DNA of 63,618 nt, the filler included, from Asterionella formosa (taxonomy: Eukaryota), in assembly GCA_002256025.1 (NCBI GenBank). It is 17 parts of 17 records of this genome, joined end to end, with 100 filler letters (N's around TTAATTAATTAA, not from the genome) between each part and the next. Parts side by side here need not be neighbours in the genome. Positions count along the whole stretch, not along the records: positions 1 to 3,658 come from NKIB01013988.1; 16 more parts are not named here. One strand, given 5' to 3'. Below the pieces are notes generated by a model that saw only the letters and a program-made list of their open reading frames with translations, did not search any database and was not told the origin of the DNA. Below, piece after piece: positions 313 through 48,485 of the stretch; within the stretch, counting starts at the first letter, position 1, and every line of letters starts with the position of its first letter. The translations under genes were made by a program, and so were the position numbers.

Positions 313-2755
313 ATGGCGATGAATTTCCCTCCTGCTTCATACGCCCGTACCCACCGTGATGCTCCAATTTTGAATGACCACGGCGTACAAGTTGAGCTCA
401 TAAAGAATGGACTCTGTCCTTATCATCCAGACATTCAGCTTCGCAAAAAGAAGAGATTTGGAGGTTGGAAGACTGTGCGAGACAGCTGCCCTAAATGCAA
501 TCGTCTGAATAGTACCCAAGGTCCTACTGCTCCAGAGACTCCAATGCCTCAGCAGTATCTTTCTTTGACAGAAACCCGAATTCAAACCGCTTCAATTCCG
601 TCTCCGATTGCTGCAATTCTTTCAAAGATGCAAATGAATGAACGGAATGCTGACATTCAAATAAAATGTTGTTCAGAACTTTGTGACTTGGCTGCAAATA
701 ATGACAAAAACAAGGTAACGATTGCTGAAGCAGGAGGTATCATTACGATTCTGTCTGCAATGAAGACTCATTCCTCAAATGCTAATGTGAAACACCATGG
801 TTGTGAAGGACTTATGAACTTGGCTGTTAATGACAAGAACAAGGAGACGATTGATGAAGCAGGAGGTATCATTACGATTCTGTCTGCAATGAAGACTCAT
901 TCCTCAAATGCTACTGTGCAAGAGAATGGTTGTGGAGCACTTAGGAACTTGGCTAGTAATAATGACAACAACCAGGTGACGATTGCTGAAACAGGAGGTA
1001 TCACTACAATTCTGGCCGCAATGAAGACTCATTCCTCAAATGCTAATGTACAAGAGTATGGTTGTGGAGCACTTGATAACTTGGCTGATAGTAATGAAAA
1101 CAACAAGGTGGCAATTGCTGATGCAGCAGGTATCCCTATGATTCTGTCAGCTATGAATAATTATTCAACCAATGCTAATGTACAATATCAAGGTTGTTCA
1201 GCATTATGGAAATTGGCTGACAATAATGAATACAACAAGGTGACGATTGCCGAAGCAGGAGGTATTCCTACAATTCTATCTGCGATGTATAACCATTTCT
1301 CTAATCTTAACGTGCAATACTGTGGTTGTGCAGCACTTATGAAGTTGGCTACTAATAATGAAAGCATCAAGCTGATAATTGCCAATGCTGGTGGAGAAGA
1401 TGCAATTAAATCTGCTATTCGAAATCACTCATCCAATGCTGGTGTCTGGGAAAAAGGTCATGAAGCACTTCATATGATTCAACCAATTTCAACAACATCC
1501 AAGAGAGCGCATGTTACTTCCTTAACCACTCCAACACCAAGCAGTAGTAATTCAACTGATCTCATTTCTGAAGATCTCATTTCCATAGGTCGATCGAAAA
1601 TGAAGGCAGCTGTGGACAATGTGGATTCAAGGCCAATCGAGCTTCCTGTTGAATTCATTACTTATTGTACAAACAATTTTGCTGAAGACAGAAAACTTGG
1701 TCAAGGAGCTTTTGGTGCTGTCTACAAAGGCATGGATGACAATCGGTATTTTGCTGTTAAATGTATTCTATTCAATATTGCTGTTGAGAAAAATAAGGTG
1801 GAGGAAGTTACCAAGGGTTTTAAAAGAGAATTGCAGGTGAGCTCATTTGTGGTATCAAATATTGCATTTCGTTTCAAGTCTTTATGTTTCTCATTCTACT
1901 GTCATACTGTTTCAGGTCTTGAAGAGGTTCCGACACCCCAATATTGTAACTTTGTATGGCTATCATTTGTCCCCTAATTCGCCTAATCAATACCTTGTGT
2001 TTGAGTATGCATCCAATGGTTCTCTTGATACATTCTATAGGAGTGAACAAAAAAGAGCAAGTCTCTCAAGTAAGATCCGACTTCGAATCATGTTCGAAAT
2101 CTTTTGTGCCATCCACTACCTTCATACTGGTACAAAGGACAACCTTGGTCTGTTTCATCGTGATATCAAGTCATCTAATAGCTGCCTTGATCAGAACTAT
2201 ACTGCCAAGCTGATTGATTGTGGTCTAGCCAAATTTGTTCTTGTGGATGACTCCATTGAAACCAGTGCAAATTCTTTTTCAGTTCAGATCACATCAACTG
2301 ATGAAATCTTTGGGTCACGTGGCTACATGTGTCCATGGTATTCTAGGGGAGATAATAAATTTGAAGCATCATGTGATGTTTACTCATTTGGCATTGTCAT
2401 GATTGAGCTTGTGACAGGCTGCATCCAAAATGATAAGAGAAAGTTGGGTAATTTCTCTGAACGCTACTTCCCAAGTGATTTTGAAGGAAACGCTAATGAG
2501 GCATTGGAATTGGCAATTCCAAAACTGGTGAAGGATGTTGATCCTCTAGCATGGGAATGGGACGATGGAATTCTGGCCTCTGTGTGCTCATTAGCCATTC
2601 GTTGCATTCAGATCAATCGCATGAGGAGGCCAACAACTTTTGAATTGGTTGTTAAGTTGGGTCAACTTGTAAGGCCAACAGATCATAATGGGTTATGTGA
2701 ATCACCACAAATGATAATTGCCTTTGACAATCATAACCTGAATGATAGCACCTAA
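313..2755 (+). CDS. Cytoplasmic ARM-repeat + IRAK/Pelle-like protein kinase (exons 313-1836 and 1916-2755, 787 aa; possible further intron 2669-2748 and exon 2749-2820)
   Basis: A phase-0 GTGAG...TTCAG intron (1837-1915, 79 nt) joins RELQ to VLKRFRHPNIV. Kinase motifs GQGAFGAVYKG, FAVK, HRDIKSSN, IDCGLAK, GSRGYMCP and DVYSFG are present, with about 7 ARM-like 43-44-aa repeats upstream. No signal peptide or TM segment is apparent. Confidence 0.9.
607..1479 (+). repeat. Coding tandem ARM-like repeats, about 132-nt unit, about 7 copies including N- and C-caps
   Basis: Recurrent TIAEAGGIxTILSAMKTHSSNANVQxxGCxALxxLA. DNA units are nearly identical (e.g. gaagcaggaggtatcattacgattctgtctgcaatgaagactcattcctcaaatgcta twice). 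Confidence 0.9.
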
Positions 2756-2816
2756 CTATGTGTCTTGTATGCCAAGATTCTACTTTGTGGGAATTGCAAT
2801 GCAAAGCTGATATAAG

Positions 2817-2835
2817 TTAGGGTTAAGGGTTAGGG
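2817..2835 (+). repeat. Short interstitial telomere-like repeat (TTAGGG TTAAGGG TTAGGG)
   Basis: Read directly. Lies at essentially the same position after the kinase cassette as the long array at 29870. Confidence 0.7.
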
Positions 2836-3658: not shown

Positions 3659-3758
3659 NNNNNNNNNNNNNNNNNNNNNNNNNNNNNNNNNNNNNNNNNN
3701 NNTTAATTAATTAANNNNNNNNNNNNNNNNNNNNNNNNNNNNNNNNNNNNNNNNNNNN
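3659..3758. other. Artificial contig-joining spacer N44-TTAATTAATTAA-N44 (one of 16)
   Basis: Identical 100-nt spacer with stops in all six frames at 3659, 7414, 11170, 14926, 18681, 22435, 26189, 29940, 33690, 37437, 41177, 44920, 48663, 52404, 56144 and 59882. The intervening contigs are all about 3.65 kb and roughly size-ordered. Confidence 0.99.
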
Positions 3759-6584
3759 TTTGGATAGGAGGACTGTCCTCATCAGGTTCTTCAATCACTT
3801 CTGGAGGTTCTGGCTCCTCCAAAATCAACTCAGGGTCATAAATTTCACTCATAGTCAATCTGATATCGTTGGTAGCATTCGTTATGTCTGCCCAAGCATA
3901 AATATCTCTTGTTTCAACCACTTTACTGGTTACTGGATTGTACATACGATACACATCCCTGGCATGGTTCTCACCATAGTAGCCAATCACTACCATGGGA
4001 TTTGCTTTCTCTTTGAACTTCCCTTTCATTGTGGACCTGTTTGTAACATAACCAACTCTTCCAAACTCAATCAAGTGTGTGTAGATGTCACTTGGTTTTC
4101 CATAAAATAACTCATCAGGTGGTACTGCACTTCGGGTGTTTGGAAGGGAATTTCCTAGTATTGCTGCTGTTTTTGTCGCTTCAGCCCATAATTTAGCTTG
4201 CATCTCTTTGGTCCATGCAGCAGATATCATCATTGCCAGTGCACGCTTTGCATCACGTGAAAACATCCTTTCCACCACTCCATTGTGCTGTGGTGTGTGA
4301 GGTGCTGTGTACTCCAACTGAACTCCATATTCTCCTTCACATATTTTTCGTAATTCAAACATATGCTCGCCCGCATTGTCACACCGTAGATATTTTACTG
4401 GCTTCCCAGCAGCCTTCAACTTGTCCAAAATTTCCTTCAGTACTTTTGTTATGCCATTCTTTCTTGCTCCATAAAAATCCCATGACTTCCTTGTTTTGTC
4501 ATCAACAAATTATACCAATAACGTGACCCCATCACTGTCTCTGAATATGGGCCACTTGTATCCATGTAGATTCTCTCGCCAGGTTTTTCTGCTACCTCTG
4601 TAGTCACCTTGTTTGTTCGTTTCTGGGTAGCTTTTGCTCGTGCACAGCCATCACACACCAACATTTTTCCAACTGGTATAATCTTAAGTGCTTGCAGCAT
4701 TTTTCGCACCACTTTTTCTGTTGCATGCCCGAATTTTCTGTGTGCCTCATTAATGTTTATTAGTTCTCTTTTCTGTTTCTTGATCATTCCATCATCATTT
4801 TTAATTTCTTCAATATTGTAGACCTCTTTTGCTCCAGCAACAAGCTGTGCAATCAGATAAGCCATACCATCGGTTCCTGTCTCAAAACTCATGATGCCAC
4901 CAGAATCATTTAATATCTTGGATCCTTCTTTTCCAGCCACAAATTCGTTTCCTTTCTCTGTCAACCTGCCAACACTTATCAAATTTCGAGCAAAACCGGG
5001 AACAACCATCACTTTTTCCAATTTCAGTGTTTTCTTTGTGTCCTTCTGCTCCAGAGTTAAATCACCAATCGCTGTTGCCTTAAGGGTTTCATTGTTTCCA
5101 ACCCTCACATGCTCACCTTCAGTTGCTGTCTGCAAATTACTCATTTTTATAGTGTTGATGGACACATGGGTTGTTGCCCCTGAGTCAACAAGCCAGCTTT
5201 CATGTCCACTCTCTGTGACAGGGCTCATGGTTTTCAATGAATTTGTAGCAAAAACTTCCTCATCCCACATCCATTCTGCTCCATGGCTTGTTTTCTCCAT
5301 CTGGTAAATAATTCCTTTCTCATCAACAATTCCTCTGATCTCATTTTCGTCGACATCGTCATATTCCTCCTCATCACTTGTCTCACACATATCAGCCCAG
5401 CTCATGGTCTTTTTCTCTACTTTCTTCTTTTGGCTTTTCACTTGTTGGAACTTGTTGTATTTTCTTGGTTTCCACTTAAATTCTCTTATGTCTTTCAAGA
5501 CACTTCTCTTCTTCCTGTTATAGTCTGCAATTTCTTGCAAAAGTTCAATTGCGAATTTATTTGTGTCAAAATACTCTGTTTTAGCTTCTTGATTCTTCTT
5601 GACATCATCCTCCCGGATATCAGGTCCATGGATTGTCATACCAACAAACATACCAGACTCTTCCTTCTTTGGACAATCTCTTGCACTGTGTCCAAATCCA
5701 CCGCAGCTGTAGCACTTCACCTTCGGTCTTTCAATGTCTTTCTCTCCACTGTTGTTGCTGTTGCCAGTGCTTCTGCAGTCTCTTGCTCTGTGGCCTTGTC
5801 TTCCACACTTGTTGCATTTACCTTTAAAGGTTCTCCAGGCACCTTTTCCACTTGTAGTATTCAGAGCCAGATGCTTTCCTCTTTCCTTGTTCTCTCTTTG
5901 ATCTTGATTTTCGCGATTTTGACGATTTTTGAATGGCTCCACAAACATCTCATAGTGGCCAATGATCTCAGCAATGAAGTCCTTATTGTCAAATCCTTTT
6001 GTACCAATCTTTCCATTTAGAGATGTAATTACTGATTCATATCTTCGTTTTGGTAGTCTTGCTAATATAGTTGCTTGCATTTGCTCTTCACTGCGTCTTG
6101 ATCCATTTTCGCACTTTTCCACTTCTCTGTTCAATCGTTCCATTTCGACAATCCAAAGGTAGGGATCATCTATGTCTAATTTCATGTAACACTTTTCAAG
6201 CTTGGTTGTTGCTTTTACCAAATCTTTTGTCTTCTTTGAGTCGTACCGGTTCTTGAGAGCTTGAAACATTTGGTATGCTGTTTCATATGATTCAATGATT
6301 GCAAAAGCATCACCTCTGCATGACATAATAAGAAAATGCTTTGCTTCATCATCTTGTCTCACCAACTCCATCTCTTCTTTTGTCAAATCTTCTTTCTCTG
6401 CCCAACTTGGAAGAACTACTTCTTCGAGTAACACCTTCTTGAAACCCTTTGTTGCAGCAAATACCTCAGCCTTCTTGAAAAATTCTCGGGGTTCAACTCC
6501 CCCCTTTGTAGTGTCAGTTCCATAAAAAGGAATGACCTTGACCGACTCCAGGACTGTTCCAGCCTTCTTTGCTTCACTCATCAT
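3759..6584 (-). mobile_element. Ty1/copia LTR retrotransposon gag-protease-integrase region (frameshifted, 3' truncated by contig end)
   Basis: Two CX2CX4HX4C knuckles (CNKCGRQGHRARDC, CYSCGGFGHSARDC), protease WLVDSGAT, HRKFGH..CDGC pre-integrase zinc finger, and integrase core YMDTSGP / LRCDNAGE / PQHNGVVER in copia order. Frameshift near 4500. Confidence 0.93.
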
Positions 6585-9027
6585 TTGCACAATCACTTCT
6601 TGACTTCCTGACCTTAACTTCCACAAGTAATCGTTTTTAAAAACGTGTTGAGATGTTCCAGATCTCCTTGATTGTACTTACACGTCTAGTGTCCAGTACT
6701 ACTAGTTCTCCACTAGCTAGTTTTCGACAACACTTTAATCTACTTTTAGATTAACCTCTTTCAATGTTGTGATTACTTCAGATTACTTTTTCTATCAATC
6801 TTACCAAATTCTATCAATCCTGCCAAATTACTTGGTCTTACCAAATTGATCTTGTTTCACAAATCTTACTTTCTTGGATTTGTTCTTCACCTCAATCCAC
6901 TCTTTCTCATTGGTCGACTTCATACGATTTGCAATTCCAATCGTCTCAGTCTTATCATTTAATCTTGCATGTTGGACTTGCTCTGTAGGAATTGCTATTC
7001 CATTTACGAATCCCGCATATATTTTCCTGAACTGACCTTCTTGTTCCATGGAATTCCTCACCATGACTGTCGGTTGTGCAGACTGTGCAGACTGTGCAGT
7101 CATTGCAGTACTAGATATACTACTGTCTGCTAACAGTAGTCGTTTATCCTCAACAGATACAATTGTACTTGTACCCGTTCATGCTCATTACCGGTACATA
7201 CGAACAACGTGCCGATTGTAAATATCGTTTTACTGTTCGTGACCGTCATCTACCGTTACTCGTTACACGTATCATACATTTCGGCATTCCGGTATATTAC
7301 CGGTACTTTGGTTTTTAAAATCCTCCCCGCTTGCATGATGGCTGGATCATTTTCCAAATACCGGTATAAGTACCGGTAGGCAGAACAAGATACTATTTTT
7401 TAATTCTATATGCNNNNNNNNNNNNNNNNNNNNNNNNNNNNNNNNNNNNNNNNNNNNTTAATTAATTAANNNNNNNNNNNNNNNNNNNNNNNNNNNNNNN
7501 NNNNNNNNNNNNNATATATACAATCGAAACAAGACGACAGTGCGGAACGACAAACAATGGCGGAACAAGGGATCAAAACAAACCACGGAAGCAATCAAAT
7601 CGGAAAGTCGATAAATACGATCTACAATCCACAATCAGTGTTTCACTGTTGTACTCACCGATCCGCTTCAACTAGCATAACAAGCAGCAGACGATGGGAT
7701 CAAAGAAAGACGAACGATGCCTATTGCAAGCCCGAAAAAAGCAAAGGCAGGCAAGATAGAGTGAGAACTATAATTGTGAGGACGAAATCGGGCATACGGT
7801 ACGTAAAATCAATGAATATGATGTGAGCGATATAATTTAACATTCTGGTCTCGTAAAATTTAATACTAAGTCTACAGAGATAATATTATATCGTGTTCAA
7901 AGTAAGCGTTAAAGAATAGCTTAAACCATGCATGGCTGCTTGTTTTTAGTACCATGTACGTAAGTAGACTAGATAAACAAGAGCTTGTCTGGTCGTATCA
8001 GGTCGTATTTTGTATCTAACCCAAACTTCATTTGCATGTTCAAGAATTAATCCTTCCTTGCTGAGCGAGCTTGCCTTTTGTAATTGCCTTCATGGCAATA
8101 ACTCCCTCACCATCTCTTCATAAACTTCATTGCACATGGTTTCGAAATTCCGGAAAATGCACCTATTGGCTCTCTTGGATTCAAATTTCACTGCACTCTT
8201 GCTCGTCACAAGGTGTTTGTTTCTCCTTATGAATACCTACCAATATCCCACTCCGAGTTGACAGTTTTCATGTATTCGATAATGTATGTTGTGCTTCTCT
8301 TTCCATGCTCTTAATTTGTCCGAGGCGGGGTCCCTTCAATAATTGAGTTGGAAAGTTATTGAAGGCCCTTGGCAACAGTGATTGGAATGCGCGTTTTAGA
8401 AAGTTGGATAATCAGTTGCACCAACTAGTAAGGTTCAATTTCGAGCATGGGCGACGGGTTCCCTTGTTTCAAGGAGGTGGCAGCATAATTATTTCTCTTA
8501 GCACGTGTACGGACTATGAAGGAACTGCTATAGGCGGAAAGAAAAACTTGGTTCTTCTGTTTGTAAATTTGAATTATTTTGGTAAGTTCACCTCTTGCAA
8601 CATGGGTATTGTTATGGCAAGGTTTTTAACAACCTTGTATTGCTAGGAGGAGGTCTCGGCGATGGCACGTGCAATGTGTTGTTCATTATCTCGTGACATG
8701 GCTTTGGTGCTGCCTTTGGACGACCATCATGGGTGGCATCATCGTCATTAGTTTGACGAACATTCCCCACATCTTCACTATTTGCTTCTTGTTCTCTATC
8801 TTCATTATTTCTCACCGTTGCACCAATTTCCCGCCTGATTTAGCTTCTGCAAATGGTAATGGACCATAGCTTTTGTTAGCCAAGTCAGTGTAGCCGCCTT
8901 AGACGCAACATTATATGGCACCAGATCGCCTTTCACGTTTCTATTTCCAAGACTATGTTATTTAAAATAAGTGACACTCCAGTCTTATTCAAAGAATTAG
9001 TTATCACCTTGTACTTTTTGGATGGTT

Positions 9028-12053: not shown

Positions 12054-14925
12054 TTATTTCACCCCCTGCCTGGGTACCTTGATAGTAATTCTGGTTTCTT
12101 TAACAACTGTAAATGAATGCTGACAAACAAAGTATATCTCCACTTCCAATTTTACCAGGTTGCTTAGACAAGTCGTGAGGTTGCTTGAGGCCCCTGCTTG
12201 TTTACTGAGTTGTTTAATATAAACAATTCTGGGACAGCTCTCCTTTAATTCAGCATCGATAGTACGAAGAGTCTTCATTATTTGTGGTATTTTAGCTTTC
12301 AAATAAGAGAACATGGCCTGGCCTTGTTGATTTAGTTGTGTCACTTCACTTTTTAAATCTTGCACTCCAAGATTTATTTGTTTCACTTCAGTTGGCAAAC
12401 CTTGCAAACCCTGAACTCCATGATTTATTTGTTTCACTTCAGTTGACAGACCTTGCAGTCCACGATTTATTTGTTTCACTTCAGTTGCAATCACTTGCAT
12501 TGAGGTGAAATTTTTTTTATTAATATCACCTCCACCTTTACTAAAATTATCAATTCAACAGTGATTGCCTTTTCCTGGATCTCTCTCAAGCTTACTAATA
12601 ATATCCCCCCACCAATGATAGCGCTCGTTTGGATCCCTCTTCAGCAATCCTTTATGCAGAGTTTTCAAAAAAGTCCAGTCTTTGATTTTTGGCAAAAATG
12701 TTTCGACCTTTTCTTCACAAACTTGGTCACTCCAATCTTTTATTTTCTTAAGCTCATCCAGCAATACTTCTTCACGCGTATCCACTTCAAAAAGTTGACG
12801 ACCAGTGCAGAGATTATATAGAAGGGCTCCAAAGCACCACATGTCATATTAGGGACTGGCTTTAACGACTACAGCACCCCTGCTCCTTCTTTTGCATCTG
12901 GTACTCAACAGCAGCCTGTTCGGGAAGCATGGGACTGGTTTTAACTCCCTTTGCAGCAACCTGCTCTATTCGAATATGGTACTCAACAGTAGCCTGTTCG
13001 GGAGGCATGTATCCAGAGCTTGTTCGCTTCTGACCAGCATTTTCTTTGTCAATTAATGCCGCATTATCAAGATCAATTGCAGCATATCCAACACCCTCGC
13101 TACCAGACACAAAATTTCGAGCCTTCACATCTCCGTGCATAACCTTACACTCTTCATTTAGAAACTGAAGGCACTTAGCAATTTGGATTGCAATGAAACG
13201 CACCATGAAAATGGCTTTGCCTGCAATTTTTTTATGCGATATAGCATCACTGAGGTCATTCTTGTTCCCGCACTCCATGACTAGGAGATGATTGAATTCA
13301 ATGTCTCCTTTTGCCAATTGACTGTCTGGTTAAGTTGAATCTCAATACCCAGATAACCATATTCATCCAACCCTTCCATGCTGTCAGTATATGCAGCCCT
13401 CACACTGATTACAATTTTTTTTGCACCATGAATGCTCATGATTTTGTTCCGCTTTGCCAATTCGCGCAGGAATGCAGGCCTTTCTGTAAAGAGCTTGAAT
13501 GCTACGCCGGTCAATTGCGTGGCCCCAGGTACAACGATCAATTCAGTGCCAAACATAACCATACAGGTACCTGAGAAATGCTTCTCCTCCTCAAATTGAT
13601 ATTTTCCAAGAAACCTTCCGTATTTATCACCCCACTCTTTGAGCTTGGGAAGCTTGGACAACTTTGCCCTATTGGCAACCTTTTGCCATGTCTCTTTTTT
13701 AACTGAAATGACGCTACTTCCGTTGCGCTATGATTATAAATGGAGATTTCCAGCTGATCCTATTCTTCGGACCCTCTCAGCTGTTCCTTTATCTGGAAGA
13801 ATATATTGGCCGCATCAGCTGTTCCAAGATCCACCAAGATTTCCAAAACAGTCCAGTTAGGTATTGGTTCTTGATTCAAATCGAGGCATGGGAGAGTCCT
13901 GCTTCGATCAAATTCATTGGTGGCGAGCACCCAAAAGAAAAAGCCCAGCCGCTCTGGAACAAAGAAAATTCTCCGCCTCTCTGGAACTTTCTCAGCTTGG
14001 GGTGCGTTTAGCATGCACAATTGCTCAAAAGCCGCAAAACCTTATACCAAATTACAATAGGATTTGACAGATCCTTTTGTACCTCATACTGTTTGGAAGA
14101 CCGCTGGCCATCTCCAACATCAAGGGTTGCATATTTCTTTATCGATTGAAGGAGCCTCGAAACACAATATTCAAATGGATTATAGCTCGTTTCATTATCA
14201 AGAGTGTTAGTCGCATCTGGGTGTTTCTTGATCAAAATATGGACAACATCAAAATCAGGATAATCTCCTAGTTGCAACGCGAGGAGAAGAGGTGACTGAG
14301 GTTTGGAGTGCCATAGTTTGCAACTGAATTTGGGTTGTCCTTTATGATTTGCTTGATCTCTGGAGCTTTTTCACCTCGAAAAATTGCCAAATGAAGTGGA
14401 ATAAAGGGCATTTTCATGGACTTAATGGCATAAGGACATTTGTCCACAAAAGCTTGGATGGATACAAGTGATACTGGCTTTTCCCCTCCTAGACCACAGT
14501 CAAGAGGAGCAGGCATCCAAAAGGGCATTTATAATTTCCACTGGAGCCCGGACTTTCATGCCAAGGTGCAGTGGAGTGTTGCCCTTGTTGTCTTTCATCA
14601 TCATGACATCAGGACAGGCATCCAAAAGGACCTTGATAACCACCACACTGGCCCCTCCTTCGATTCCAAGGTGCAACAGAGTGTTTCCATGGCGATCTTG
14701 CACCTTTGCAGCTTCAGGACAAGCTTTCAACAGGGGGTTCAATATCATCCACCCTGACATGGGGTGTTTCCCCCCAGATCAGGGATAATTAAAAACAATA
14801 TCATCAATGTTCTCCGGTTTGAGAAAGTTCTTGCTTCTTATCTCAACTGTTCTTTGGATTTTATTAAGTAAGCGATCATCAATTGAATTATACCGGAGAC
14901 CAAGTTCAGTCAAGACAGTATTGAC
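12054..14925 (-). pseudogene. Ankyrin-repeat + protein kinase + coiled-coil + C-terminal domain gene, disrupted
   Basis: Ankyrin-like HGNTLLHLG / KGNTPLHLG / IPLHLAI, kinase HGDVKARNF, AAIDLD, SSGYMPPE and YDMWCFGALL, and TEVKQIN heptad repeats. Split over at least 7 ORFs by frameshifts, with an in-frame TAA (ASP*YDMW) near 12850. Confidence 0.8.
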
Positions 14926-15954: not shown

Positions 15955-16822
15955 ATGATGAAGGTTGCTATTCTTGCGTCTCTTGCCGCATCGGCTGCTG
16001 CCTTTGCCCCTGCTTCCACTGTCGGTACGTCCAGTGATTCCGTATCCTGATTCACCGTGTCATACAGGACGTTCATGCCGCGGTCATGGAGCATTAATGG
16101 AGTCTCCGGGTTGGATATCAGGGTCGTAGCTATCTTTATTGTGAAGGAAGTTATGGAATAGATTCGCTCAAGTGCAGCTGTGTGCTGTCTCTTCATCCGA
16201 AGTAGTCTCCTGTTTCGGCACCCGTCGTATGCGCCCATCTCACCAACTTGTGATCGCCGACTTCCCTCGCACAGGACGCACGGTTACATCCCTCAATTAC
16301 GAGAAGAGCCCCTCCCTTCCTTTCCTTCCATACCCTGAAAATTTAAAGGGTTATGTCGGAGACGTTGGTTTCGATCCTTTCCGCTTCTCTGACTTTGTCC
16401 CCATGGATTTTCTTCGCGAGGCAGAAATCAAGCACGGTCGTATTTGCATGTTGGCGTGGGCCGGCTTTGTTGCGGTCGACCTTGGACTAAAGATTTACCC
16501 ATTCCCTGAGGCGTATGAGGGCCTCACCTCTGCAACCGCCCACGATGCCCTTGTCAAGCAGGGTGCCATGGGACAAATTCTTCTTTGGGCTAGTCTCGCT
16601 GAAGTCATATCCACGGTCGCTGTCATGCAGATGATGGCCGGATCTGGACGCAAGGCTGGAGACTTTGGACTTGACCCTATGGGATTCTTGGCGAACAAGT
16701 CGGAGGAGGACATCAACGAGATGAAGCTTAAGGAGCTCACCAATGGACGTTTGGCGATGATGGCGTTCTCTGGTGTTGTCACTCAAGCCGTCCTCACCCA
16801 AGGACCTTTCCCTTATGTTTAA
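15955..16822 (+). CDS. LHCR: Light-harvesting fucoxanthin-chlorophyll protein, Lhcr (PSI antenna) type; exons 15955-16024 and 16275-16822, 205 aa
   Basis: MMKVAILASLAASAAAFAP bipartite presequence, GTACGT...ACAG phase-1 intron, and the motifs GFDP, REAEIKHGRICMLA and ELTNGRLAMMA. Confidence 0.93.
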
Positions 16823-17376: not shown

Positions 17377-18209
17377 TTACACGTATGGGAATCCATGGCC
17401 AGTAAGAACAGCCTGGGTAGCAACACCTCCAATAGCAAACATTGCCAAACGTCCATTCTTCAATTCACGGAGCTTCCAACGTCGGACCTCCTCAGGGGAC
17501 TTGTCCTTGAGGATTTTAAGTGGATCAAGTCCGAAGTTACCAGGTTCACGTCCAGATCCCTGCAACATCTCCGAAACAGCCAAATATCCGATCATCTCGG
17601 CGATTCCGATAAAGAGGAACAGGTTGCCCATGGCACCTTGCGTGACAAGGGCGTCATGAGCTGTCGTAGAAGTAAGTCCTTCATATGCCTCAGGGAAAGG
17701 GTAGATCTTGGCCCCCATGTCGGTGGCGACGAATCCTGTCCAGGCAAGCATGGCAATGCGACAATGCTTCAATTCCGCCTCGCGGAGGTAATCCATGGGG
17801 AAGTAGTCGGAAATGCGAAGTGGGTCAAATCCAGTCTCGTCGCCAACGTAGCCTCTGACGTTTTCTGGGTATGGGAGGAACGGAAGAGCGGGTGACTTCA
17901 CCTTGGCATTGAGGGAAGTCGTCGCCTTGGCTATGCGGTGTAATAAGGATGAAAGAGTTAGAAATACATCTATACAAGTTGGAGAAGATTCCTTGCCTTT
18001 ATGCTGCTCGGCCAAGGCTTCCCAGCCTGTTTCTTGATTCAGGTAGTCCCTACTTAAGTACACATCGGACCCTCTGGCTTGTGGTATGTCTCGTTTCGCA
18101 ATCTATTTTAAAGATCCTTGTTCCCCTGTCCAAATCACGTACCTCCCTGGGAAGCAGGAGCAAAGGCGGAGGCAGAGCCAAGGAACGCGGCGAGGATAGC
18201 GAGCTTCAT
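17377..18209 (-). CDS. LHCR: Light-harvesting protein, Lhcr type; exons 18209-18143 and 17930-17377, 206 aa (alternative in-frame ATG at 18218)
   Basis: MKLAILAAFLGSASAFAP presequence, GTACGT...ATAG phase-1 intron, and the motifs GFDP, REAELKHCRIAMLA and ELKNGRLAMFA. Confidence 0.93.
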
Positions 18210-18780
18210 GGTGGACATTCAGTGTAATAGCAGAGGATGTACCAGAAGCATCAGCTAGCAACACAGAAAGGTGAACAAAAGTTGGTTGAACTGAAAGATT
18301 TGTTATATCTGTTGTGATTGTGTGTCGTTCAGTACTGCTATAGAACTATATCATGACGTCAGAGGACAATTACCGATTGGTATTGTACCTGGTACCAGGT
18401 ACCAGTTCGTGTAATGGGGTATGCCACTACCCGTAAAACCTGGTGCCTCGTATCCCCCCAGATACCTGTACCCCCCTTCGTACATCTGGCACAACACCCC
18501 CAAATATTTTATGTCTACAGAAAAAATAACAGCATATTATTGTATTCTAGCACTTTATTAATGAATTTACTATAATTGTATTCTTACCGGTCACCATCAT
18601 GAAACAACAATCAACAACAACACGAGCGATGCCAATGACATTTGCGATGGCGATATCCTTGTCCTGAGATCTATTTCAAANNNNNNNNNNNNNNNNNNNN
18701 NNNNNNNNNNNNNNNNNNNNNNNNTTAATTAATTAANNNNNNNNNNNNNNNNNNNNNNNNNNNNNNNNNNNNNNNNNNNN

Positions 18781-28269: not shown

Positions 28270-29794
28270 ATGCTAAAAGCTTTTCGTCGAAAGAAGACAG
28301 AAACAGAATTGGAGAAATATGTCAAACGGTTGAAAGCGAATGATCCAAATTTGACTGAACTTAATCTCTCTTTTAATTCAATTGGTGATGACGGAGCCAA
28401 GGCCATTGCAGAGGCTCTCAAGATCAATACTGTCTTGACTACACTTTCTCTCTATAATAATTCAATTGGTGATGACGGAGCCAAGGCCATTGCAGAGGCT
28501 CTCAAGGTCAATACTGTCTTGACTAAACTTGAACTCAAAGATAATTCAATTGATAGTTATTTACTAAATGATATTCAAAAACTGGTTCAAAACAAGAACC
28601 GCAAACCAACAGCAGCCAATACAACTGAACTCATTTCTGAAGGTCGGTCGAAAATGAAGGAAGTTATGGACAATGTGGATTCAAGACCAATCGAGCTTCC
28701 TAAGGAATTCATTATTAGTTGTACAAACAACTTTGCTGAAAAGAGAAAACTTGGTGAAGGTTCTTTTGGTGCTGTCTACAAAGGCATGGATGACAATCAG
28801 TATTTTGCTGTGAAATGTATTCATTTCCATTTAGGTTTTTTGGACGATCAGAAAAAAGGAATTAGTAAGAGTTTTATAAAAGAATTGGAGGTAAGCTCAT
28901 CCGTAGTATCATCTATTACAGGTTGTCTAAGTCTTTTATGTTTCTGATTCTTCCATCATACTGTTTCAGGTATTAAAGAGGTTCCAACACCCTCATATTG
29001 TAACTTTGTATGGCTATCATTTGTCCCCTGTTTCATCTGATCAACACGTGGTATCTGATCAATACCTGGTGTATGAGTTATTATCCGAGGGGTCACTTGA
29101 ATCATTCTATAAGAGTGAACAAAAAAGATCAAGTCTTACAAGTACGATCCGACTTCGAATCATGAACGAAATTATTTCTGCCATCCACTTCCTTCATACC
29201 ATAGAAATGGACGGCCACACTCTGTTTCATCGTGACATCAAGTCAGCTAATATCTGCCTTGATCAGAACTATACTGCCAAGCTGATTGATTGTGGCCTAG
29301 CCAAGTTTGTGCCTAAGGGTAGCTCAGTAAAAACCAATCCAATTCCTTCCTTTATTTGTAACACAGCAGGTGATGGACAATATGGGACACGTGGCTACAT
29401 GTGTCCATATCATGCTAGGGGTAACAAATATATACCAGCATGTGACGTTTACTCATTTGGCATTGTCATGATTGAGCTTGTAACAGGCTGCCTCCAATTT
29501 GGAAGGCTGAAAGAGTTCCATGAACGCTATTTCCCGGAAAATTTTGATGGGACCCCAACTCAAGCATTGGAGGTGGCAATTCCAAAATTGGTAAAAGATG
29601 TTGATTCTGAAGCAGATGAATGGGAAGATGTAATTCTGTCCTCTGTTTGCTCATTAGCCATTCGTTGCATTCAGACCAATCGCGAGAAAAGGCCAACAAC
29701 TAAAGATTTGGTTAAAGAGTTGGGTGAACTTGTAAGGCCAACACCACAAATGATAATTGCATTTGACAATCTTAACCTGAATGAAAGCACTTAA
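28270..29794 (+). CDS. Cytoplasmic LRR (RI/NLRC3-like 28-aa repeats) + IRAK/Pelle-like kinase (exons 28270-28890 and 28970-29794, 481 aa)
   Basis: LxxLxLxxNSIGDDGAKAIAEALKxNTV x2.5. A phase-0 GTAAG...TTCAG intron (28891-28969, 79 nt) sits at the same site as in the ARM kinase. Motifs GEGSFGAVYKG, FAVK, HRDIKSAN, IDCGLAK, GTRGYMCP and DVYSFG are present. Confidence 0.9.
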
Positions 29795-29869
29795 CAATGT
29801 GTCTTGTGTGCCAAGATTCTACTTTGTGGGAATTGCAATGCAGAGCTGATATAGGCAATGCAACAATTG

Positions 29870-29939
29870 TTAGGGTTAGGGTTAGGGTTAGGGTTTAGGT
29901 TTAGGTTTAGGGTTAGGGTTAGGGTTAGGGTTAGGGTTA
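29870..29939 (+). repeat. Telomeric repeat array (TTAGGG)n with TTTAGG variants, running to the contig end
   Basis: About 12 units, G-rich strand oriented toward the contig end as expected for a chromosome terminus. Confidence 0.85.
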
Positions 29940-37436: not shown

Positions 37437-37536
37437 NNNNNNNNNNNNNNNNNNNNNNNNNNNNNNNNNNNNNNNNNNNNTTAATTAATTAANNNNNNNN
37501 NNNNNNNNNNNNNNNNNNNNNNNNNNNNNNNNNNNN

Positions 37537-45218: not shown

Positions 45219-45448
45219 AAGAATTACGAACACGACCACAAAGAAAAAGGCGTTTCATCGATAAAACAACCAAATGCATCAACGAGAACAAAGCAAACAT
45301 GGCGACAACTATCAGTGGCTCATTCGCCCATACCCACCATGATGCTCCATTTGTGAACGTGTATGCCGTACAAGTGGAGCTCTTTAGGAATGGAATCTGT
45401 CCTTATCACGCAGACATTCAGCTTCGCAATGCGATCATGAACGAATGA
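45219..45448 (+). pseudogene. Truncated remnant of the ARM-kinase family 5' cassette (5'UTR + N-terminal CxxH motif)
   Basis: ATG at 45299 gives MATTISGSFAHTHHDAPFVNVYAVQVELFRNGICPYHADIQLR, vs ..ASYARTHRDAPILNDHGVQVELIKNGLCPYHPDIQLR in gene 313. It stops shortly after. Confidence 0.8.
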
Positions 45449-45573: not shown

Positions 45574-48246
45574 CTAAATATACGATGACCACCATTTCCC
45601 ACGTTGGGTCATTATGCTAAGTGCTTCATTACCATTTTCTTGAACACCAGCATTGTATGAGTGCTTTCGCATAGCAGATTCGATGTCGGCTTTTCCACCA
45701 GCATTGGAAATCCTCAACTGATTGCGGTCATTATTATTTGCCAAGTTACAAAGTGCTCGACAACCATGCTTTTGCACATTGGCATTGTCTAAATGACACC
45801 TCATCGCAGACAGAATCATAATTATACCTCCTGCTTCAGCAATCGTCCCCTTGTTTCTGTCATTATTCTCAGCCAATCTCAAAAGTGCTCCACAACCATA
45901 CTCTTGCACATTAGCATTAAATGTGCAATTCCTCATTGCCGACAGAATCGTAGTTATACCTCCTGCTTCAGCAATCGTCATCTTGTTATTGTCATTATTC
46001 AAAGCCAAGTTCATAAGTGCTCCTAAACCATATTCTTGTACCTTAGCAGTTGATAAATGAGTCGCCATTGCAGACAGAATCGTAGTTATACCTCCTGCTT
46101 CAGAAATCGACACCTTGTTATTGTCATTATTATTAACCAAGTCCATAAGTGCTCCACAACAATACTCTTGCACATTAGCATTGTATAAATGAAACTTCAT
46201 TGCAGACAGAATCGTAGTTATACCTCCTGCTTCAGCAATCGTCATCTTGTTATTGTCATTATTCAAAGCCAAGTTCATAAGTACTGCACAACCATAGTGT
46301 TGCACATCCGCTATCAAGGAATGAGCCTTCATTGCAGACAGAATAATAATGATACCTCCTACTTCAGCAATCTTCACCTTGATATTGTCATTATTCAAAG
46401 CCAAGTTCATAAGTGCTCCACAACCACACTCTTGCACATTAGCATTGTCTAAATATTCATCCATCGCAGACAGAATCGTAATTATACCTCCTGCTTCAGC
46501 AATCGTCACCTTGTTTCTGTCATTATTCTCAGTCAATCTCAAAAGTGCTCCACAACCATACTCTTGCACATTAGCATTATATGAATGAATCTTCATTGCC
46601 GACAGAATCGTAGTTATACCTCCTGCTTCAGCAATTGTCACCTTGTGGTTGTCATTATTTGCAGCCAAGTTGAAAAGTGTTGCACAACCATTTTGTTGTA
46701 CATTAGCATTGGAGTAATGAGTCTTCATTGCAGACAGAATCGCAGACAGAATCGACGTGATAAGTCGTTCTCCTACAATAATCTTACCCATGTAGTCGTC
46801 ATTATAAGCCAAGTTCCCAATTATTCCACAACCATATTGTTGCACAATAGCATTGTCTAAATGAAACTTCATCGCAGACAGAATCGTAGTGATACCTCCT
46901 GCTTCAGCAATTGTCACCCTGTTATTGTAATTCATAGCCAACTTCCAAAGTGTTCTACAGTTATATTCTTGCTCATCCGCATTGGATTCATAAGTCTTCA
47001 TCCCAGACAGAATCGAAGTGATATCTTCTGCGACAAAACCAATCATGTTTTTCAAGTCGACAGAGATAAATGTGACTTGCTTTTCATAATTTGCCAAATC
47101 ACAAAGCACATGCTTTTTGAGCGCAAAACGCCAAGTTCTGGATTTCAGTACCTCCTTGTCAAACTCTTCCAAGCAATGGCGCATCATACCTTTTCTTTCC
47201 AGATCTAAAACAAATTCTTTGAAATCCTTCAGCTTGTTCAGGTCGAACCCAGACTTCTTGTATTCCTTCAGACCCTCAGCAGGTGATGATTTATTCACTT
47301 CATCAAGAAAATTCTTGACATTGAGCACAACATCACCTGGAAGCGTGGGAATAGGATACCCAAATGCTTTTGCCAATCCCCCAGCCACGATCCATAGCAT
47401 AGTTTCTTTCACTCCAACAGCAAACAACTGGGCCCCTATCTCTGCAAACTGTTCGATTTGCATCCGATATTTTGCCGTTTCTATTTTGTACGAGACAACT
47501 GGCTGGAGCGTCAATCCACACAACACCTGAAGATATACCACTTCAGTCTTACCACTGGAAAGTCGCCTGCCTTTTCTGAGAGCAATGCCTGTCTCCTTGT
47601 TCTTCAAAGAGTCAGGATAGTCGCGGAAACATTCAAATAACTTCAGAGCTCGATCAATAATTTCTACCAATTCCTTCACTCCATCGCTAGCTCGTTTTCT
47701 CAATGATTGCTCGAGCATCAATGTGCTCTTGAATGTTTTAAACTCATCAGCAGTGAGAAGGTTAAACATGTATGGGAATTCCACCTCGTCAAGTTGGTCC
47801 ATCAAATCAGGGATTTGGCCGTTGCTCAACTGTATGTATTTTAGCGTCACAGACTGGGCATGCAGAAAAGCATCGGCAAGAACCTTGGTTTCAACCATGA
47901 CATCCTTGGTTTCATCAGGGAATTGGGGCACGACATCCTTGATTTCATCCACCACGGATTCATTGTCATCAAATTGACTAATAATATCCTTCCAACCATG
48001 ATAGGTAGCTTGTACGCCATACTCATTCGTAATTGAAGCATCATGGGTAGGGGCGTATGAAACTGCAGACAATGACATGTTTGAATAGTTCTCGTTGATT
48101 GCTTTGGCTGTTTGTGATCGCAAGTGTGATAAAACTGTAACGCCGTCTTCTTTGTGGGCGTGTTTGTAATTCTTGAGTCTCCACGTTGTAGAAGCATCAT
48201 GGGTAGGGGCGTATGAAACTGCAGACAATGGCTTTGACAATGGCAT
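45574..48246 (-). CDS. Chimeric protein: family N-terminal peptide + helical/COR-like domain + about 11 C-terminal ARM repeats (890 aa from first ATG; alternative ATG 48078 gives 834 aa)
   Basis: Uninterrupted ORF (the track start at 48372 is TTG). About 11 44-aa repeats of the same family as gene 313, including the homologous C-cap NAGG..IESAMRKHSYNAGVQENGNEAL. Confidence 0.85.
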   Translation of the reverse strand: MPLSKPLSAVSYAPTHDASTTWRLKNYKHAHKEDGVTVLSHLRSQTAKAINENYSNMSLSAVSYAPTHDASITNEYGVQATYHGWKDIISQFDDNESVVDEIKDVVPQFPDETKDVMVETKVLADAFLHAQSVTLKYIQLSNGQIPDLMDQLDEVEFPYMFNLLTADEFKTFKSTLMLEQSLRKRASDGVKELVEIIDRALKLFECFRDYPDSLKNKETGIALRKGRRLSSGKTEVVYLQVLCGLTLQPVVSYKIETAKYRMQIEQFAEIGAQLFAVGVKETMLWIVAGGLAKAFGYPIPTLPGDVVLNVKNFLDEVNKSSPAEGLKEYKKSGFDLNKLKDFKEFVLDLERKGMMRHCLEEFDKEVLKSRTWRFALKKHVLCDLANYEKQVTFISVDLKNMIGFVAEDITSILSGMKTYESNADEQEYNCRTLWKLAMNYNNRVTIAEAGGITTILSAMKFHLDNAIVQQYGCGIIGNLAYNDDYMGKIIVGERLITSILSAILSAMKTHYSNANVQQNGCATLFNLAANNDNHKVTIAEAGGITTILSAMKIHSYNANVQEYGCGALLRLTENNDRNKVTIAEAGGIITILSAMDEYLDNANVQECGCGALMNLALNNDNIKVKIAEVGGIIIILSAMKAHSLIADVQHYGCAVLMNLALNNDNNKMTIAEAGGITTILSAMKFHLYNANVQEYCCGALMDLVNNNDNNKVSISEAGGITTILSAMATHLSTAKVQEYGLGALMNLALNNDNNKMTIAEAGGITTILSAMRNCTFNANVQEYGCGALLRLAENNDRNKGTIAEAGGIIMILSAMRCHLDNANVQKHGCRALCNLANNNDRNQLRISNAGGKADIESAMRKHSYNAGVQENGNEALSIMTQRGKWWSSYI

Positions 48247-48485
48247 GTTTGAATAGTTCTCGTTGATTGCTTTGGCTGTTTGTGATCGCACGTGTGATGA
48301 AACTGTAGCGCCATTCTCTTTGTGGGCGTGTTTGTAGTTCTTGAGACTCCACCATCTGTCGTTGACATGCAAGCTACAAATTCATTCAGTCATCAAAAAC
48401 ATGCCGGAATAGTTTTGTTTGTGATCGCACGTATGATGAAACTGTAGCGCGGTTTTCTTTGTGAGCGTGTTCGTCATTCTTGAGA
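48010..48485 (-). repeat. 168-bp tandem duplication (plus partial third copy) of the 5'UTR/start cassette
   Basis: LKNYKHAHKE..SQTAKAINENYSNM..SAVSYAPTHDAS occurs twice. Third partial copy at 48415-48485. Confidence 0.85.

What the first reader, a model, noticed from the sequence alone, without database searches (positions are those of the whole stretch)
607..1479. ARM repeats with high internal DNA conservation but hypervariable helix-3 positions
Seen: the scaffold TIAEAGGIxTILSAM..NANVQ is almost invariant in both ARM genes. The residues after VQ/VK (HH, EN, EY, YQ, YC here; QY, QN, EY, EC, HY, KH in the 45574 gene) and in GCxALxxLAx change in nearly every unit. Established: helix 3 lines the peptide-binding groove of ARM solenoids, and homogenised repeats with hypervariable sites mark fungal HET/NLR sensors. 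Inference: concerted evolution plus diversifying selection on ligand-contact residues, possibly a repeat-level recognition code.
Basis: partly seen in the sequence, partly recalled or inferred. Interest (0 to 1): 0.75.

Follow-up and report, generated by a model that had tools for sequence, protein, structure and literature searches.

The report
Variable-groove ARM arrays on algal kinases
A freshwater alga carries a fast-evolving gene family in which armadillo-repeat arrays with a fixed scaffold and a rapidly changing binding groove are fused to immune-type kinases, which looks like a candidate receptor repertoire but has no known ligand.

Summary
Window 607-1479 is an array of seven 44-residue ARM units in an intron-containing, apparently transcribed eukaryotic gene (313-2755). 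The gene reads Cys/His N-motif, ARM array, RLK/Pelle/IRAK-like kinase. A second gene (45574-48372, minus strand) carries eleven such units behind an unknown domain.

Variability peaks on one face of helix 3 (columns 32, 33, 36, 39, 40, 43; helical periodicity p=0.00025).

On 27 units from four genes:
- Site models favour a positively selected class (M1a vs M2a, 2dlnL 50.5).
- The helix-3 face has beta/alpha 2.9 (p=0.002).
- A tree-free test on 13 independent unit pairs agrees (pN 0.32 against pS 0.15).
- The loop evolves neutrally (ratio 1.0).
- Single-site tests are not significant.

Concerted evolution within a gene is not supported. Units are 62-68% identical within genes and 65% between them, and they interleave on the tree.

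The same kinase also follows an LRR array in this window, and ankyrin, Kelch or LRR arrays in relatives.

Best reading (about 0.5): a diversifying family of cytoplasmic receptor-like kinases. It is a new variant of a known kind.

The parts
313..1836 (+). Gene A, exon 1: N-terminal leader and Cys/His motif, ARM array, linker, start of the kinase domain
   Evidence: Open frame of 508 codons. Pfam Arm, ARM_LRRK2 and the N-terminal end of Pkinase.
313..498 (+). N-terminal leader plus CxxH...CxxC motif (residues 1-62). No Pfam family.
   Evidence: Read from the translation. The same motif is in L002, P0004, P0009 and P0010. No Pfam match at E<=0.01.
568..1488 (+). ARM array of gene A. A0 is an N-cap at 568-699. 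Core units: A1 700-828, A2 829-960, A3 961-1092, A4 1093-1224, A5 1225-1356. A6 is a C-cap at 1357-1488.
   Evidence: Unit register. AlphaFold2 model pLDDT 94.3, three helices per unit. Foldseek top hits are engineered and designed ARM proteins.
1837..1915 (+). Intron of 79 nt (GT..AG) inside the kinase domain
   Evidence: Frame and splice sites read. One contig of the polyA RNA run joins 1837 to 1919. None of the 3 DNA runs shows this joint.
1916..2755 (+). Gene A, exon 2: kinase domain of RLK/Pelle/IRAK type, with stop codon
   Evidence: Pfam Pkinase 96.8 bits against a cut-off of 31.7. Best solved relatives are plant receptor-like kinases and IRAK1/4.
2817..2835 (+). Degenerate telomere-type repeat (about 3 units of TTAGGG) about 60 nt after the stop of gene A
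45574..48372 (-). Gene B: duplicated leader, unknown domain of about 350 residues, eleven ARM units, no kinase
   Evidence: Open frame. Pfam ARM families only. No relative of the N-domain was found.
45601..47061 (-). ARM array of gene B: B1 cap, B2-B10 core, B11 cap. B3 has a degenerate helix 1 and a 12-nt duplication at 46730-46754.
28270..29794 (+). Gene E: short RI-type LRR array, then the same linker and the same kinase paralogue. A 79-nt intron at 28891-28969 sits at the same place as in gene A.
   Evidence: Pfam LRR_6 58 bits and Pkinase. Linker plus kinase N-lobe against gene A: 66% identical, dS 0.22.
29869..29939 (+). Telomere-type repeat (TTAGGG, 11.7 units, running into a masked stretch) about 75 nt after the stop of gene E. 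The 3' UTR before it is homologous to that of gene A.
45309..45448 (+). Orphan fragment encoding only the N-terminal leader and the first half of the Cys/His motif

Best explanation
The flagged stretch is the ligand-binding module of a young, fast-diversifying family of cytoplasmic receptor-like kinases in a photosynthetic freshwater stramenopile-type alga, probably a diatom.

Shown:
- Each 44-residue unit is a three-helix ARM repeat.
- The buried residues and helix 2 are under purifying selection.
- The solvent face of helix 3, which lines the groove of an ARM solenoid, accumulates amino-acid changes about three times faster than synonymous changes.
- The array is joined through a conserved linker to an RLK/Pelle/IRAK-type kinase.
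- The same linker and kinase follow an LRR array in a second gene of the window.
- Ankyrin, Kelch or LRR arrays sit in front of related kinases elsewhere.

Inferred:
- Each unit contacts a short piece of an extended peptide or protein surface through helix 3, so a new array gives a new specificity.
- Binding is reported by the kinase.
- Diversity arises by unit duplication, point change under diversifying selection, and exchange of unit blocks between paralogues. It does not arise by homogenisation inside a gene.
- The ligands are probably variable foreign or non-self proteins. This rests only on analogy.
For: Fold:
- AlphaFold2 pLDDT 94.3, pTM 0.90. Helices at unit columns 2-10, 13-23 and 28-41.
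- Foldseek TM 0.80 to the engineered ARM 4rv1, and hits to designed ARM-peptide complexes 5aei and 5mfe.

Selection, 27 core units from genes A and B and loci L002 and L001:
- M0 omega 0.93; my lnL equals that of iqtree2, -1829.17.
- M1a -1752.87 against M2a -1727.59, p=1e-11. Posterior above 0.95 at columns 25, 26, 32, 39 and 43.
- The 14 window units alone give 2dlnL 22.5, p=1.3e-5, at columns 39 and 43.
- Class-pooled rates: helix-3 face beta/alpha 2.89 (p=0.0024); buried helix 3, 0.44; helix 2, 0.25 (p=1.6e-5).
- Tree-free test on 13 disjoint pairs: pN 0.323 on the helix-3 face against pS 0.151 overall and 0.122 locally.

One surface:
- Helical moment p=0.00025.
- Columns 33, 36 and 40 align with Glu30, Trp33 and the conserved Asn of designed ARM proteins (PMC4756613 passages; PMC10684580 passage).

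Modularity:
- Gene E has an LRR array on the same kinase, with the same intron place and length.
- Of 30 hand-picked close kinase relatives, 7 carry ankyrin, 2 Kelch and 1 LRR arrays.
- Eight LRR units vary at the x positions of xLxLxx.

Exchange: units B7-B8 match C3-C4 in the same order (95% and 87% nt against a background of about 80%). A perfect tract covers the variable half of B7/C3.

Expression: polyA RNA contigs match 1081-1297 and 1544-1675 with no differences, and there is one spliced joint at the intron.
Against: - Single-site tests that allow site-specific synonymous rates do not reach significance at the most variable columns (25, 26, 32, 39, 43: p 0.17-0.88).
- No single unit pair has dN significantly above dS, except the C-caps A6/C7 (p=0.042).
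- The helix-3 class was fixed after I had seen the entropy profile.
- Recombination among repeats can inflate M2a tests, and my fit only rescales the iqtree2 branch lengths.
- The same columns are the variable ones inside 25 ARM proteins of distant protists (Spearman 0.68). Part of the pattern is therefore a general property of this ARM type.
- The whole family evolves fast. The linker and kinase N-lobe have omega 0.70-0.95 between paralogues, which also fits weak constraint.
- L001 has two in-frame stops.
- No ligand, no localisation and no infection data exist.
Confidence: 0.5

Rival explanations
1. Ordinary ARM scaffold proteins. Each unit of an array contacts a different part of one conserved cellular partner, so groove residues differ between units as in any ARM protein. 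The family expanded recently for reasons unrelated to recognition of variable ligands.
For: The within-protein variability profile of 25 other family members, from a choanoflagellate, slime moulds and unnamed protists, correlates with this one (rho 0.68). Several of them have equally regular units (mean unit identity 0.63-0.73 in P0005, P0006, P0007 and P0018). Per-site tests are weak.
Against: This rival predicts omega below 1 between young paralogous units. Instead the helix-3 face shows 2.9, and pN is twice pS in independent pairs. The canonical groove Asn (column 40) is variable here (2.42 bits) but conserved in the other 25 proteins (0.6 bits). 50 of 54 units have distinct groove sets.
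Confidence: 0.25
2. A decaying, selfishly amplified subtelomeric or transposon-associated family under relaxed constraint. The variable sites are simply the unconstrained ones.
For: Overall omega is 0.93 and flanking domains have omega 0.54-0.95. L001 has two in-frame stops. There is an orphan 5' fragment at 45309-45448. Telomere repeats follow two genes and retroelements lie nearby.
Against: Relaxation gives omega near 1 everywhere. Here helix 2 has 0.25 and buried helix 3 has 0.44, while the exposed helix-3 face has 2.9. M1a, which allows a neutral class, is rejected against M2a. Genes A, B and E have intact frames. Exact gene A sequence and a spliced joint occur in a polyA RNA run.
Confidence: 0.1
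3. Repeats inside each gene are kept alike by ongoing gene conversion or unequal crossing-over (concerted evolution), as in the fungal HET/NWD WD40 repeats, with selection keeping a few sites different.
For: dS among units is low (0.23-0.33). Scaffold codons are identical at synonymous sites in most units. A1 and A2 share a long identical stretch over helices 1-2 while helix 3 differs. One block, B7-B8 with C3-C4, is shared between genes.
Against: Units are no more alike within a gene than between genes: amino-acid identity is 0.62-0.68 against 0.65, and dS is 0.23-0.33 against 0.30. Sister units on the tree often come from different genes: B7/C3, B8/C4, A5/C6. Identity is far below the 85% criterion of fungal highly conserved repeats. 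Terminal units A5/C6 and caps A6/C7 keep their position in the array, as expected from whole-gene duplication.
Confidence: 0.1

Closest known systems
Highly internally conserved WD40/ANK/TPR repeats of fungal NLRs (HET-E/D, NWD family; Dyrka et al. 2014, PMC4986451, passages read)
   Same: A solenoid or propeller array with a fixed scaffold. A few positions per unit are under positive selection and map to the binding surface. Repeats are shared between paralogues with different other domains.
   Different: The repeat type here is ARM. Unit identity is 62-68%, not about 85%. There is no NACHT or NB-ARC domain; the output is a kinase or an unknown domain. Units are not homogenised within a gene.
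Brown-algal LRR-ROCO and NB-ARC-TPR candidate receptors (Zambounis et al. 2012, PMC3341825; Front Plant Sci 2024, PMC11378527; listing and start of abstract only)
   Same: A stramenopile alga with an expanded family of repeat-array proteins proposed as fast-evolving receptors. Repeats are shuffled among members.
   Different: By their titles, those families shuffle exons. Here the whole ARM array lies in one exon, the repeats are ARM, and the partner is an IRAK/RLK-type kinase rather than a ROC-COR GTPase or NB-ARC.
Designed armadillo repeat proteins and importin-alpha (PMC4756613; PMC10684580; PDB 5aei, 5mfe, 4rv1)
   Same: Same fold (TM 0.71-0.80). The peptide is bound along the helix-3 groove, each repeat binding two adjacent residues. 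The window's variable columns 33, 36 and 40 align with the groove residues Glu30, Trp33 and the backbone-binding Asn.
   Different: In those proteins the groove Trp and Asn are kept in every repeat to bind one repetitive ligand. Here they are the sites that change. The unit has two extra residues in the helix 2-3 loop (44 against 42).
Plant RLK/RLCK and animal IRAK (Pelle) kinases
   Same: The kinase domain is closest to LysM-RLK, PBL2, IRAK1, FERONIA, SYMRK, CERK1, BIK1 and IRAK4 (E 4e-19 to 1e-15). A repeat array sits N-terminal of the kinase.
   Different: No signal peptide or membrane span is evident and the array is cytoplasmic ARM. DFG reads DCG and APE reads CPW in the sequence. Placement inside the family by phylogeny was not done.
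Oomycete TKL kinases with ankyrin, Armadillo or TPR domains (Phytophthora infestans kinome, PMC3019232, passages)
   Same: A stramenopile TKL-group kinase fused to ARM or ankyrin arrays.
   Different: Only single genes are reported there (one with 10 C-terminal Armadillo domains), with no diversifying arrays. That paper found no IRAK-like kinase in the diatom T. pseudonana.
Regular 44-residue ARM arrays of other protists (Salpingoeca rosetta DUF4062-ARM proteins, Dictyostelium Aardvark-like F-box proteins)
   Same: Same unit consensus and the same variable columns. The arrays are fused to many different domains: U-box, caspase, PARP, TAZ, SH3, kinase.
   Different: 46% identity or less. No DNA-level evidence on their evolution was obtained here.

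Membership tests
Armadillo repeat (Pfam PF00514, ARM fold) | Profile match above the curated threshold | tested here: met
   Arm 57.9 bits against 20.6. ARM_LRRK2 67.5 and 91 bits against 26.2.
Armadillo repeat (Pfam PF00514, ARM fold) | Three helices per unit of about 42 residues, stacked into a right-handed solenoid | tested here: met
   AlphaFold2 pLDDT 94.3. Helices of 9, 11 and 14-15 residues per 44-residue unit. TM 0.80 to 4rv1. Handedness was not measured.
RLK/Pelle/IRAK kinases (TKL group) | Protein kinase domain with catalytic Lys, HRD Asp and DFG Asp | tested here: met
   Pkinase 96.8 bits. The translation shows GxGxFG, a VAIK-type Lys, HRDIKSSN and DCG. APE is replaced by CPW.
RLK/Pelle/IRAK kinases (TKL group) | Groups with RLK/Pelle/IRAK rather than with other TKL subfamilies | tested here: inconclusive
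   The best solved relatives are all plant RLK/RLCK and IRAK. No tree with other TKL subfamilies was built.
Fungal-type highly internally conserved (HIC) repeats | Units over 85% identical over at least 100 residues (criterion in PMC4986451) | tested here: not met
   Mean unit identity is 0.62-0.68, with a maximum of 0.82.
Fungal-type highly internally conserved (HIC) repeats | Positive selection on a few positions that map to the binding surface | tested here: met
   Helix-3 face beta/alpha 2.89, p=0.0024. M2a against M1a p=1e-11. One helical face, p=0.00025. Caveats are given in the report.
Fungal-type highly internally conserved (HIC) repeats | Repeat exchange within and between paralogues | tested here: inconclusive
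   One two-unit block (B7-B8 with C3-C4) is shared between two gene architectures. No formal recombination test was run.
NLR / STAND receptors | Central NACHT or NB-ARC NTPase domain | tested here: not met
   No such Pfam match in gene A, B or E at E<=0.01.
ROCO / LRRK kinases | ROC-COR GTPase tandem between the repeats and the kinase | tested here: not met
   Only the ARM_LRRK2 profile matches. There is no Roc or COR match, and the linker between array and kinase is about 60 residues.
Concerted evolution of tandem repeats | Units more alike within a gene than between paralogous genes | tested here: not met
   Amino-acid identity is 0.65 (A) and 0.63 (B) within genes and 0.65 between A and B. 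dS is 0.33 and 0.23 within and 0.30 between. The tree is interleaved.

The most novel reading that the evidence does not exclude
A diatom-type alga holds a very large repertoire of intracellular receptor kinases born next to telomeres. Swappable solenoid arrays (ARM, LRR, and perhaps ankyrin and Kelch) are plugged onto one IRAK/RLK-type kinase. Each ARM unit reads about two residues of an extended peptide through its helix-3 groove. Blocks of units are exchanged between paralogues to build new specificities. This would be a natural counterpart of engineered modular ARM binders, serving as an innate recognition system against chytrids, oomycetes, viruses or bacteria in phytoplankton.
Probability: 0.2. 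Interest if true: 0.85.

Novelty: new variant of a known kind. Interest (0 to 1): 0.55.

Why it matters
Recognition systems of phytoplankton are almost unknown, although parasites and viruses control their blooms. Fixed-scaffold repeat arrays with selected contact sites are the hallmark of receptors in plants, fungi, brown algae and jawless fish.

Finding the same signature in ARM repeats fused to an immune-type kinase would add a new scaffold and a new lineage to that list. It would also give a concrete gene family to test in infection experiments.

The helix-3 residue sets are a natural library of ARM groove variants, which is of interest to those who engineer modular peptide binders.

My four literature searches found no description of such a family in diatoms. 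These were word searches of open-access texts and are not proof of absence.

Tried and rejected
- Whole-genome search: no genome is held for this window, so 'all units genome-wide' could not be done.
- The one metagenome DNA scan gave only two loci.
- My first Pfam call had a frame slip and was corrected.
- Gene B N-domain: no Atlas hit, and no relative among proteins of 512-1631 residues (shorter and longer lengths not searched). AlphaFold2 gave pLDDT 37.7, so no fold search was made.
- N-terminal motif search found only P0004. The word filter missed P0009 and P0010, which do carry the motif.
- Read laying: the 'other letters' table is dominated by paralogues and cut to the best-supported rows, so it could not test polymorphism at the variable codons. 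Summed depths are not copy numbers. Skipping joints inside the array come from short contigs at 90% likeness and were not used as evidence of repeat-number variation.
- Per-site alpha/beta tests lack power.
- Single unit pairs are not significant.
- The bacterial promoter and terminator scan is irrelevant to a eukaryote.
- The earlier-findings index returned nothing.
- Literature searches for ARM-based receptors in diatoms or ARM-NLRs returned nothing relevant.
- A small recognition alphabet is rejected: 50 of 54 helix-3 sets are distinct.
Full report
**What the window is**

The window is eukaryotic nuclear DNA of a photosynthetic alga. It holds:
- two chlorophyll a/b-binding (FCP/LHC-type) genes (Pfam);
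- copia-type and other retroelements;
- spliceosomal introns;
- TTAGGG tracts.

No whole genome is held for it. Public runs that share its 31-mers are labelled freshwater, lake-water or algae metagenomes. The best run holds 0.68 of the words. The phrase 'diatom-type' is my inference from the FCP genes, the telomere repeat and the look of the proteins. No tool named the organism.

**Anatomy**

Gene A runs 313-1836 and 1916-2755, with a 79-nt GT..AG intron between. Its parts, in order, are:
- a leader and a CxxH...CxxC motif with no Pfam family;
- seven ARM units (A0 to A6);
- a Ser/Thr-rich linker;
- a protein kinase (Pkinase 96.8 bits).

The flagged 607-1479 lies inside the array, which I place at 568-1488.

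Gene B (45574-48372, minus strand) has a duplicated leader, an unknown domain of about 350 residues and eleven units, but no kinase.

Gene E (28270-29794) has a short RI-type LRR array, then the same linker and kinase. Its intron has the same length and position as that of gene A.

One metagenome scan with a conserved 29-nt pattern returned two loci:
- L002 is a gene-A-like ARM-kinase with one more unit.
- L001 is an LRR array followed by an ARM array, with two in-frame stops.

**The observation**

Tandem Repeats Finder finds the 132-nt period in both genes.

First, several 'variable' sites keep one residue in half or more of the 14 core window units: E32 in 7, Y33 in 7, G36 in 8 and N40 in 9.

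Second, a further cluster at columns 22-26 is as variable as helix 3.

At DNA level the units are 64-91% identical and dS is 0.23-0.33. Glycine, leucine and cysteine codons of the scaffold are the same in nearly all units. The units are therefore young, not merely constrained.

**Structure**

AlphaFold2 on residues 85-400 of gene A, with a 26-sequence alignment, gives pLDDT 94.3 and pTM 0.90. There are three helices per unit, at columns 2-10, 13-23 and 28-41.

Foldseek's best matches are an engineered consensus ARM protein (4rv1, TM 0.80) and designed ARM proteins in complex with Lys/Arg peptides.

HMMER aligns the units to 4rv1 with two extra residues in the helix 2-3 loop.

I assume 4rv1 and the designed proteins share the 42-residue numbering. 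On that assumption, window columns 33 and 36 correspond to Glu30 and Trp33. PMC4756613 calls these surface-exposed and important for peptide binding. Column 40 corresponds to the conserved Asn that binds the peptide main chain on the concave side (passages; the number 37 for that Asn is recalled). Buried Ile27 and Leu32 correspond to the conserved V30 and C35, which supports the register.

PMC10684580 states that the largest shifts on peptide binding lie in helix 3 and that each repeat binds two adjacent residues (passages).

Instead I tested periodicity. Entropy along helix 3 has a helical moment reached by 0.025% of permutations. Columns 29, 32, 33, 36, 39, 40 and 43 all fall within a 120-degree arc.

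**Selection**

I aligned 27 core units codon by codon: A1-5, B2-10, six from L002 and seven from L001. Caps were left out and stop codons were treated as missing.

I wrote a GY94-F3x4 likelihood on the iqtree2 tree. Its M0 value equals iqtree2's own (-1829.17, omega 0.93). The results:

| Test | Result |
|---|---|
| M1a vs M2a, 27 units | -1752.87 vs -1727.59; omega2 3.5 on 17% of sites; 2dlnL 50.5; p=1e-11 |
| Posterior above 0.95 | columns 25, 26, 32, 39, 43 (column 23: 0.94; column 40: 0.81) |
| M1a vs M2a, 14 window units only | 2dlnL 22.5; p=1.3e-5; columns 39 and 43 |

Constant-dS models are known to misfire under recombination, so I added two checks.

The first pooled sites into structural classes, each with its own synonymous rate:

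| Class | beta/alpha | p |
|---|---|---|
| Exposed helix-3 face | 2.89 | 0.0024 |
| Buried helix 3 | 0.44 | |
| Helix 2 | 0.25 | 1.6e-5 |
| Helix 1 | 1.48 | not significant |
| Columns 22-26 | 1.00 (both rates doubled) | |

The second check used no tree, on 13 disjoint nearest-neighbour pairs:

| Sites | Value |
|---|---|
| Exposed helix-3 face, pN | 0.323 |
| All sites, pS | 0.151 (Fisher p=2.4e-6 against the helix-3 pN) |
| Helix-3 face, local pS | 0.122 |
| Buried helix 3, pN | 0.048 |
| Helices 1-2, pN | 0.091 |

Evidence against this reading:
- Single-site tests with free synonymous rates are not significant at the top sites.
- No single core pair is significant.
- I defined the helix-3 class after seeing the entropies.

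**Concerted evolution**

Units are no more alike within a gene than between genes. Amino-acid identity is 0.62-0.68 within genes against 0.65 between A and B. dS is 0.23-0.33 within against 0.30 between.

On the tree, sister units often come from different genes: B7/C3, B8/C4 and A5/C6. The last core unit and the caps keep their place between gene A and L002, as whole-gene duplication predicts.

One block points to exchange. B7-B8 match C3-C4 in order (95% and 87% against a background of about 80%). There is a perfect tract over the loop and helix 3 of B7/C3 that runs 16 nt into the next unit, although the two genes have different flanking domains. By my rough estimate this is suggestive only, once the number of pairs is counted.

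Unit numbers differ among the closest homologues: seven in gene A, eight in L002 and about six in P0004. I cannot say whether these are alleles, paralogues or orthologues.

**Context and family**

The ARM type is widespread. 108 proteins scored E<=0.001 among 7374 candidates. The best named hit is a Salpingoeca rosetta DUF4062 protein, followed by Dictyostelium Aardvark-like proteins. Fusions to U-box, caspase, PARP, TAZ, SH3 and kinase domains occur.

Inside 25 of these proteins the same columns vary between units (rho 0.68). The helix-3 pattern is therefore partly generic.

Two things set the window's family apart:
- young units with a fixed helix 1-2 surface;
- variability of column 40, the groove Asn (2.42 bits, against 0.6 bits).

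The kinase is closest to plant receptor-like kinases and IRAKs.

A full HMMER scan gave 249 representatives at E<=1e-30. From the 150 listed I picked by hand 30, mostly single-kinase hits of 39% identity or more. In Pfam they sort as follows:

| Content besides the kinase | Proteins |
|---|---|
| Ankyrin arrays | 7 |
| Kelch arrays | 2 |
| RI-type LRR array | 1 |
| Kinase only | 19 |
| No match at all | 1 |

Eight LRR units of gene E and L001 vary at the x positions of xLxLxx and keep the helix invariant (a small sample).

Paralogues also differ quickly outside the arrays. Omega is 0.54-0.95 and dS is 0.21-0.53. The C-caps A6/C7 show dS 0.017 against dN 0.145.

**Expression and abundance**

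In a polyA metatranscriptome run, contigs match 1081-1297 and 1544-1675 without a difference. One contig joins 1837 to 1919 with two other letters between. This fits a paralogue spliced at the predicted intron, because L002 begins exon 2 with those letters. None of three DNA runs shows the joint. The tool warns that DNA can be present in RNA libraries.

In run X1, 36,958 short contigs at 90% likeness or more were laid on the 2.4-kb gene. Of these, 16,711 fit two places, and they pile on the scaffold parts of the units. This suggests a very large family, but it is not a copy number.

**Verdict**

Diversifying selection on the helix-3 groove is supported at the class level, by two methods with different assumptions. 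Concerted evolution within genes is not supported.

The most likely reading is a modular, diversifying family of cytoplasmic receptor-like kinases. Its function as a recognition system is inferred by analogy with fungal NLR repeats, brown-algal candidate receptors (listing only) and plant receptor kinases.

ARM-kinase fusions are already known in oomycetes. What is new is the selected-groove ARM array in an alga of this kind.

Noticed in passing
window 2760-2835 and 29795-29939: Genes A and E have homologous 3' UTRs of about 60-75 nt, each followed directly by TTAGGG repeats. About 3 degenerate units follow A. At least 11.7 units follow E and run into a masked stretch. The pattern matches 11 times in the window against 0.14 expected. 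An ancestral copy may have sat at a chromosome end and been copied together with its telomere tract.
   Followed up: partly
window 28270-29794: Gene E is an LRR-kinase paralogue of gene A, with the same linker and a 79-nt intron at the same place. Its LRR units, and those of L001, vary at the x positions of xLxLxx while the helix GAKAIAEAL is invariant (8 units).
   Followed up: partly
window 45309-45448 (+), upstream 45060-45308: An orphan open frame encodes only the family's N-terminal leader and the first half of the Cys/His motif and then stops. The DNA upstream resembles the region upstream of gene A. It lies tail to tail with gene B.
   Followed up: no
window 48078-48372 (-): The 5' end of gene B is a tandem duplication of about 56 codons holding the leader, so there are two candidate start codons (48246 and 48078).
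   Followed up: no
window 46730-46754 and unit B3: Unit B3 carries a 12-nt duplication (ILSA twice) and a degenerate helix 1. It is the most divergent unit (64-72% nt identity to the other window units).
   Followed up: partly
L001 1-2117 (-): One reading frame holds about ten RI-type LRR units followed by at least eight ARM units. Two in-frame stops fall at ARM columns 39 and 29. This is a pseudogene, a sequencing error or a read-through, undecided.
   Followed up: partly
window 1357-1488 against L002 unit C7: The C-terminal cap units of gene A and L002 differ at 12 of 44 residues with almost no synonymous change (dS 0.017, dN 0.145; Fisher p 0.042). None of these changes is on the helix-3 six columns.
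   Followed up: partly
window 40579-41085 (-) and 41368-41874 (+): Two identical 168-codon open frames lie in inverted orientation about 280 nt apart, forming a large inverted duplication of unknown nature.
   Followed up: no
window 16145-16822 (+) and 17377-18102 (-): A convergent pair of chlorophyll a/b-binding (FCP/LHC-type) genes (Pfam 125.9 and 112.3 bits).
   Followed up: yes
window 3703-6677, 18725-22340, 34774-37968: Retroelement remains: copia-type gag with zinc knuckle and Pol beta-barrel, an integrase-like frame, and a reverse transcriptase. The ARM and LRR kinase genes sit among them.
   Followed up: partly
window 12054-13329 (-): A different kinase fragment (Pkinase 37.9 bits) sits next to a 42/93-nt tandem repeat that encodes a coiled-coil-like heptad pattern. 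A similar heptad stretch precedes the gene-B-type domain in P0099.
   Followed up: no
proteins P0134, P0166, P0167, P0176, P0177, P0193, P0203, P0218, P0244, P0259: The closest kinase relatives in public data carry ankyrin (7), Kelch (2) or LRR (1) arrays in front of the kinase. The kinase seems to be a common output for many repeat types.
   Followed up: partly
window, every ~3750 bases: Pairs of 44-N masks recur at regular spacing (1418 N in all). They are operator masks, not biology, and some cut open frames.
   Followed up: no
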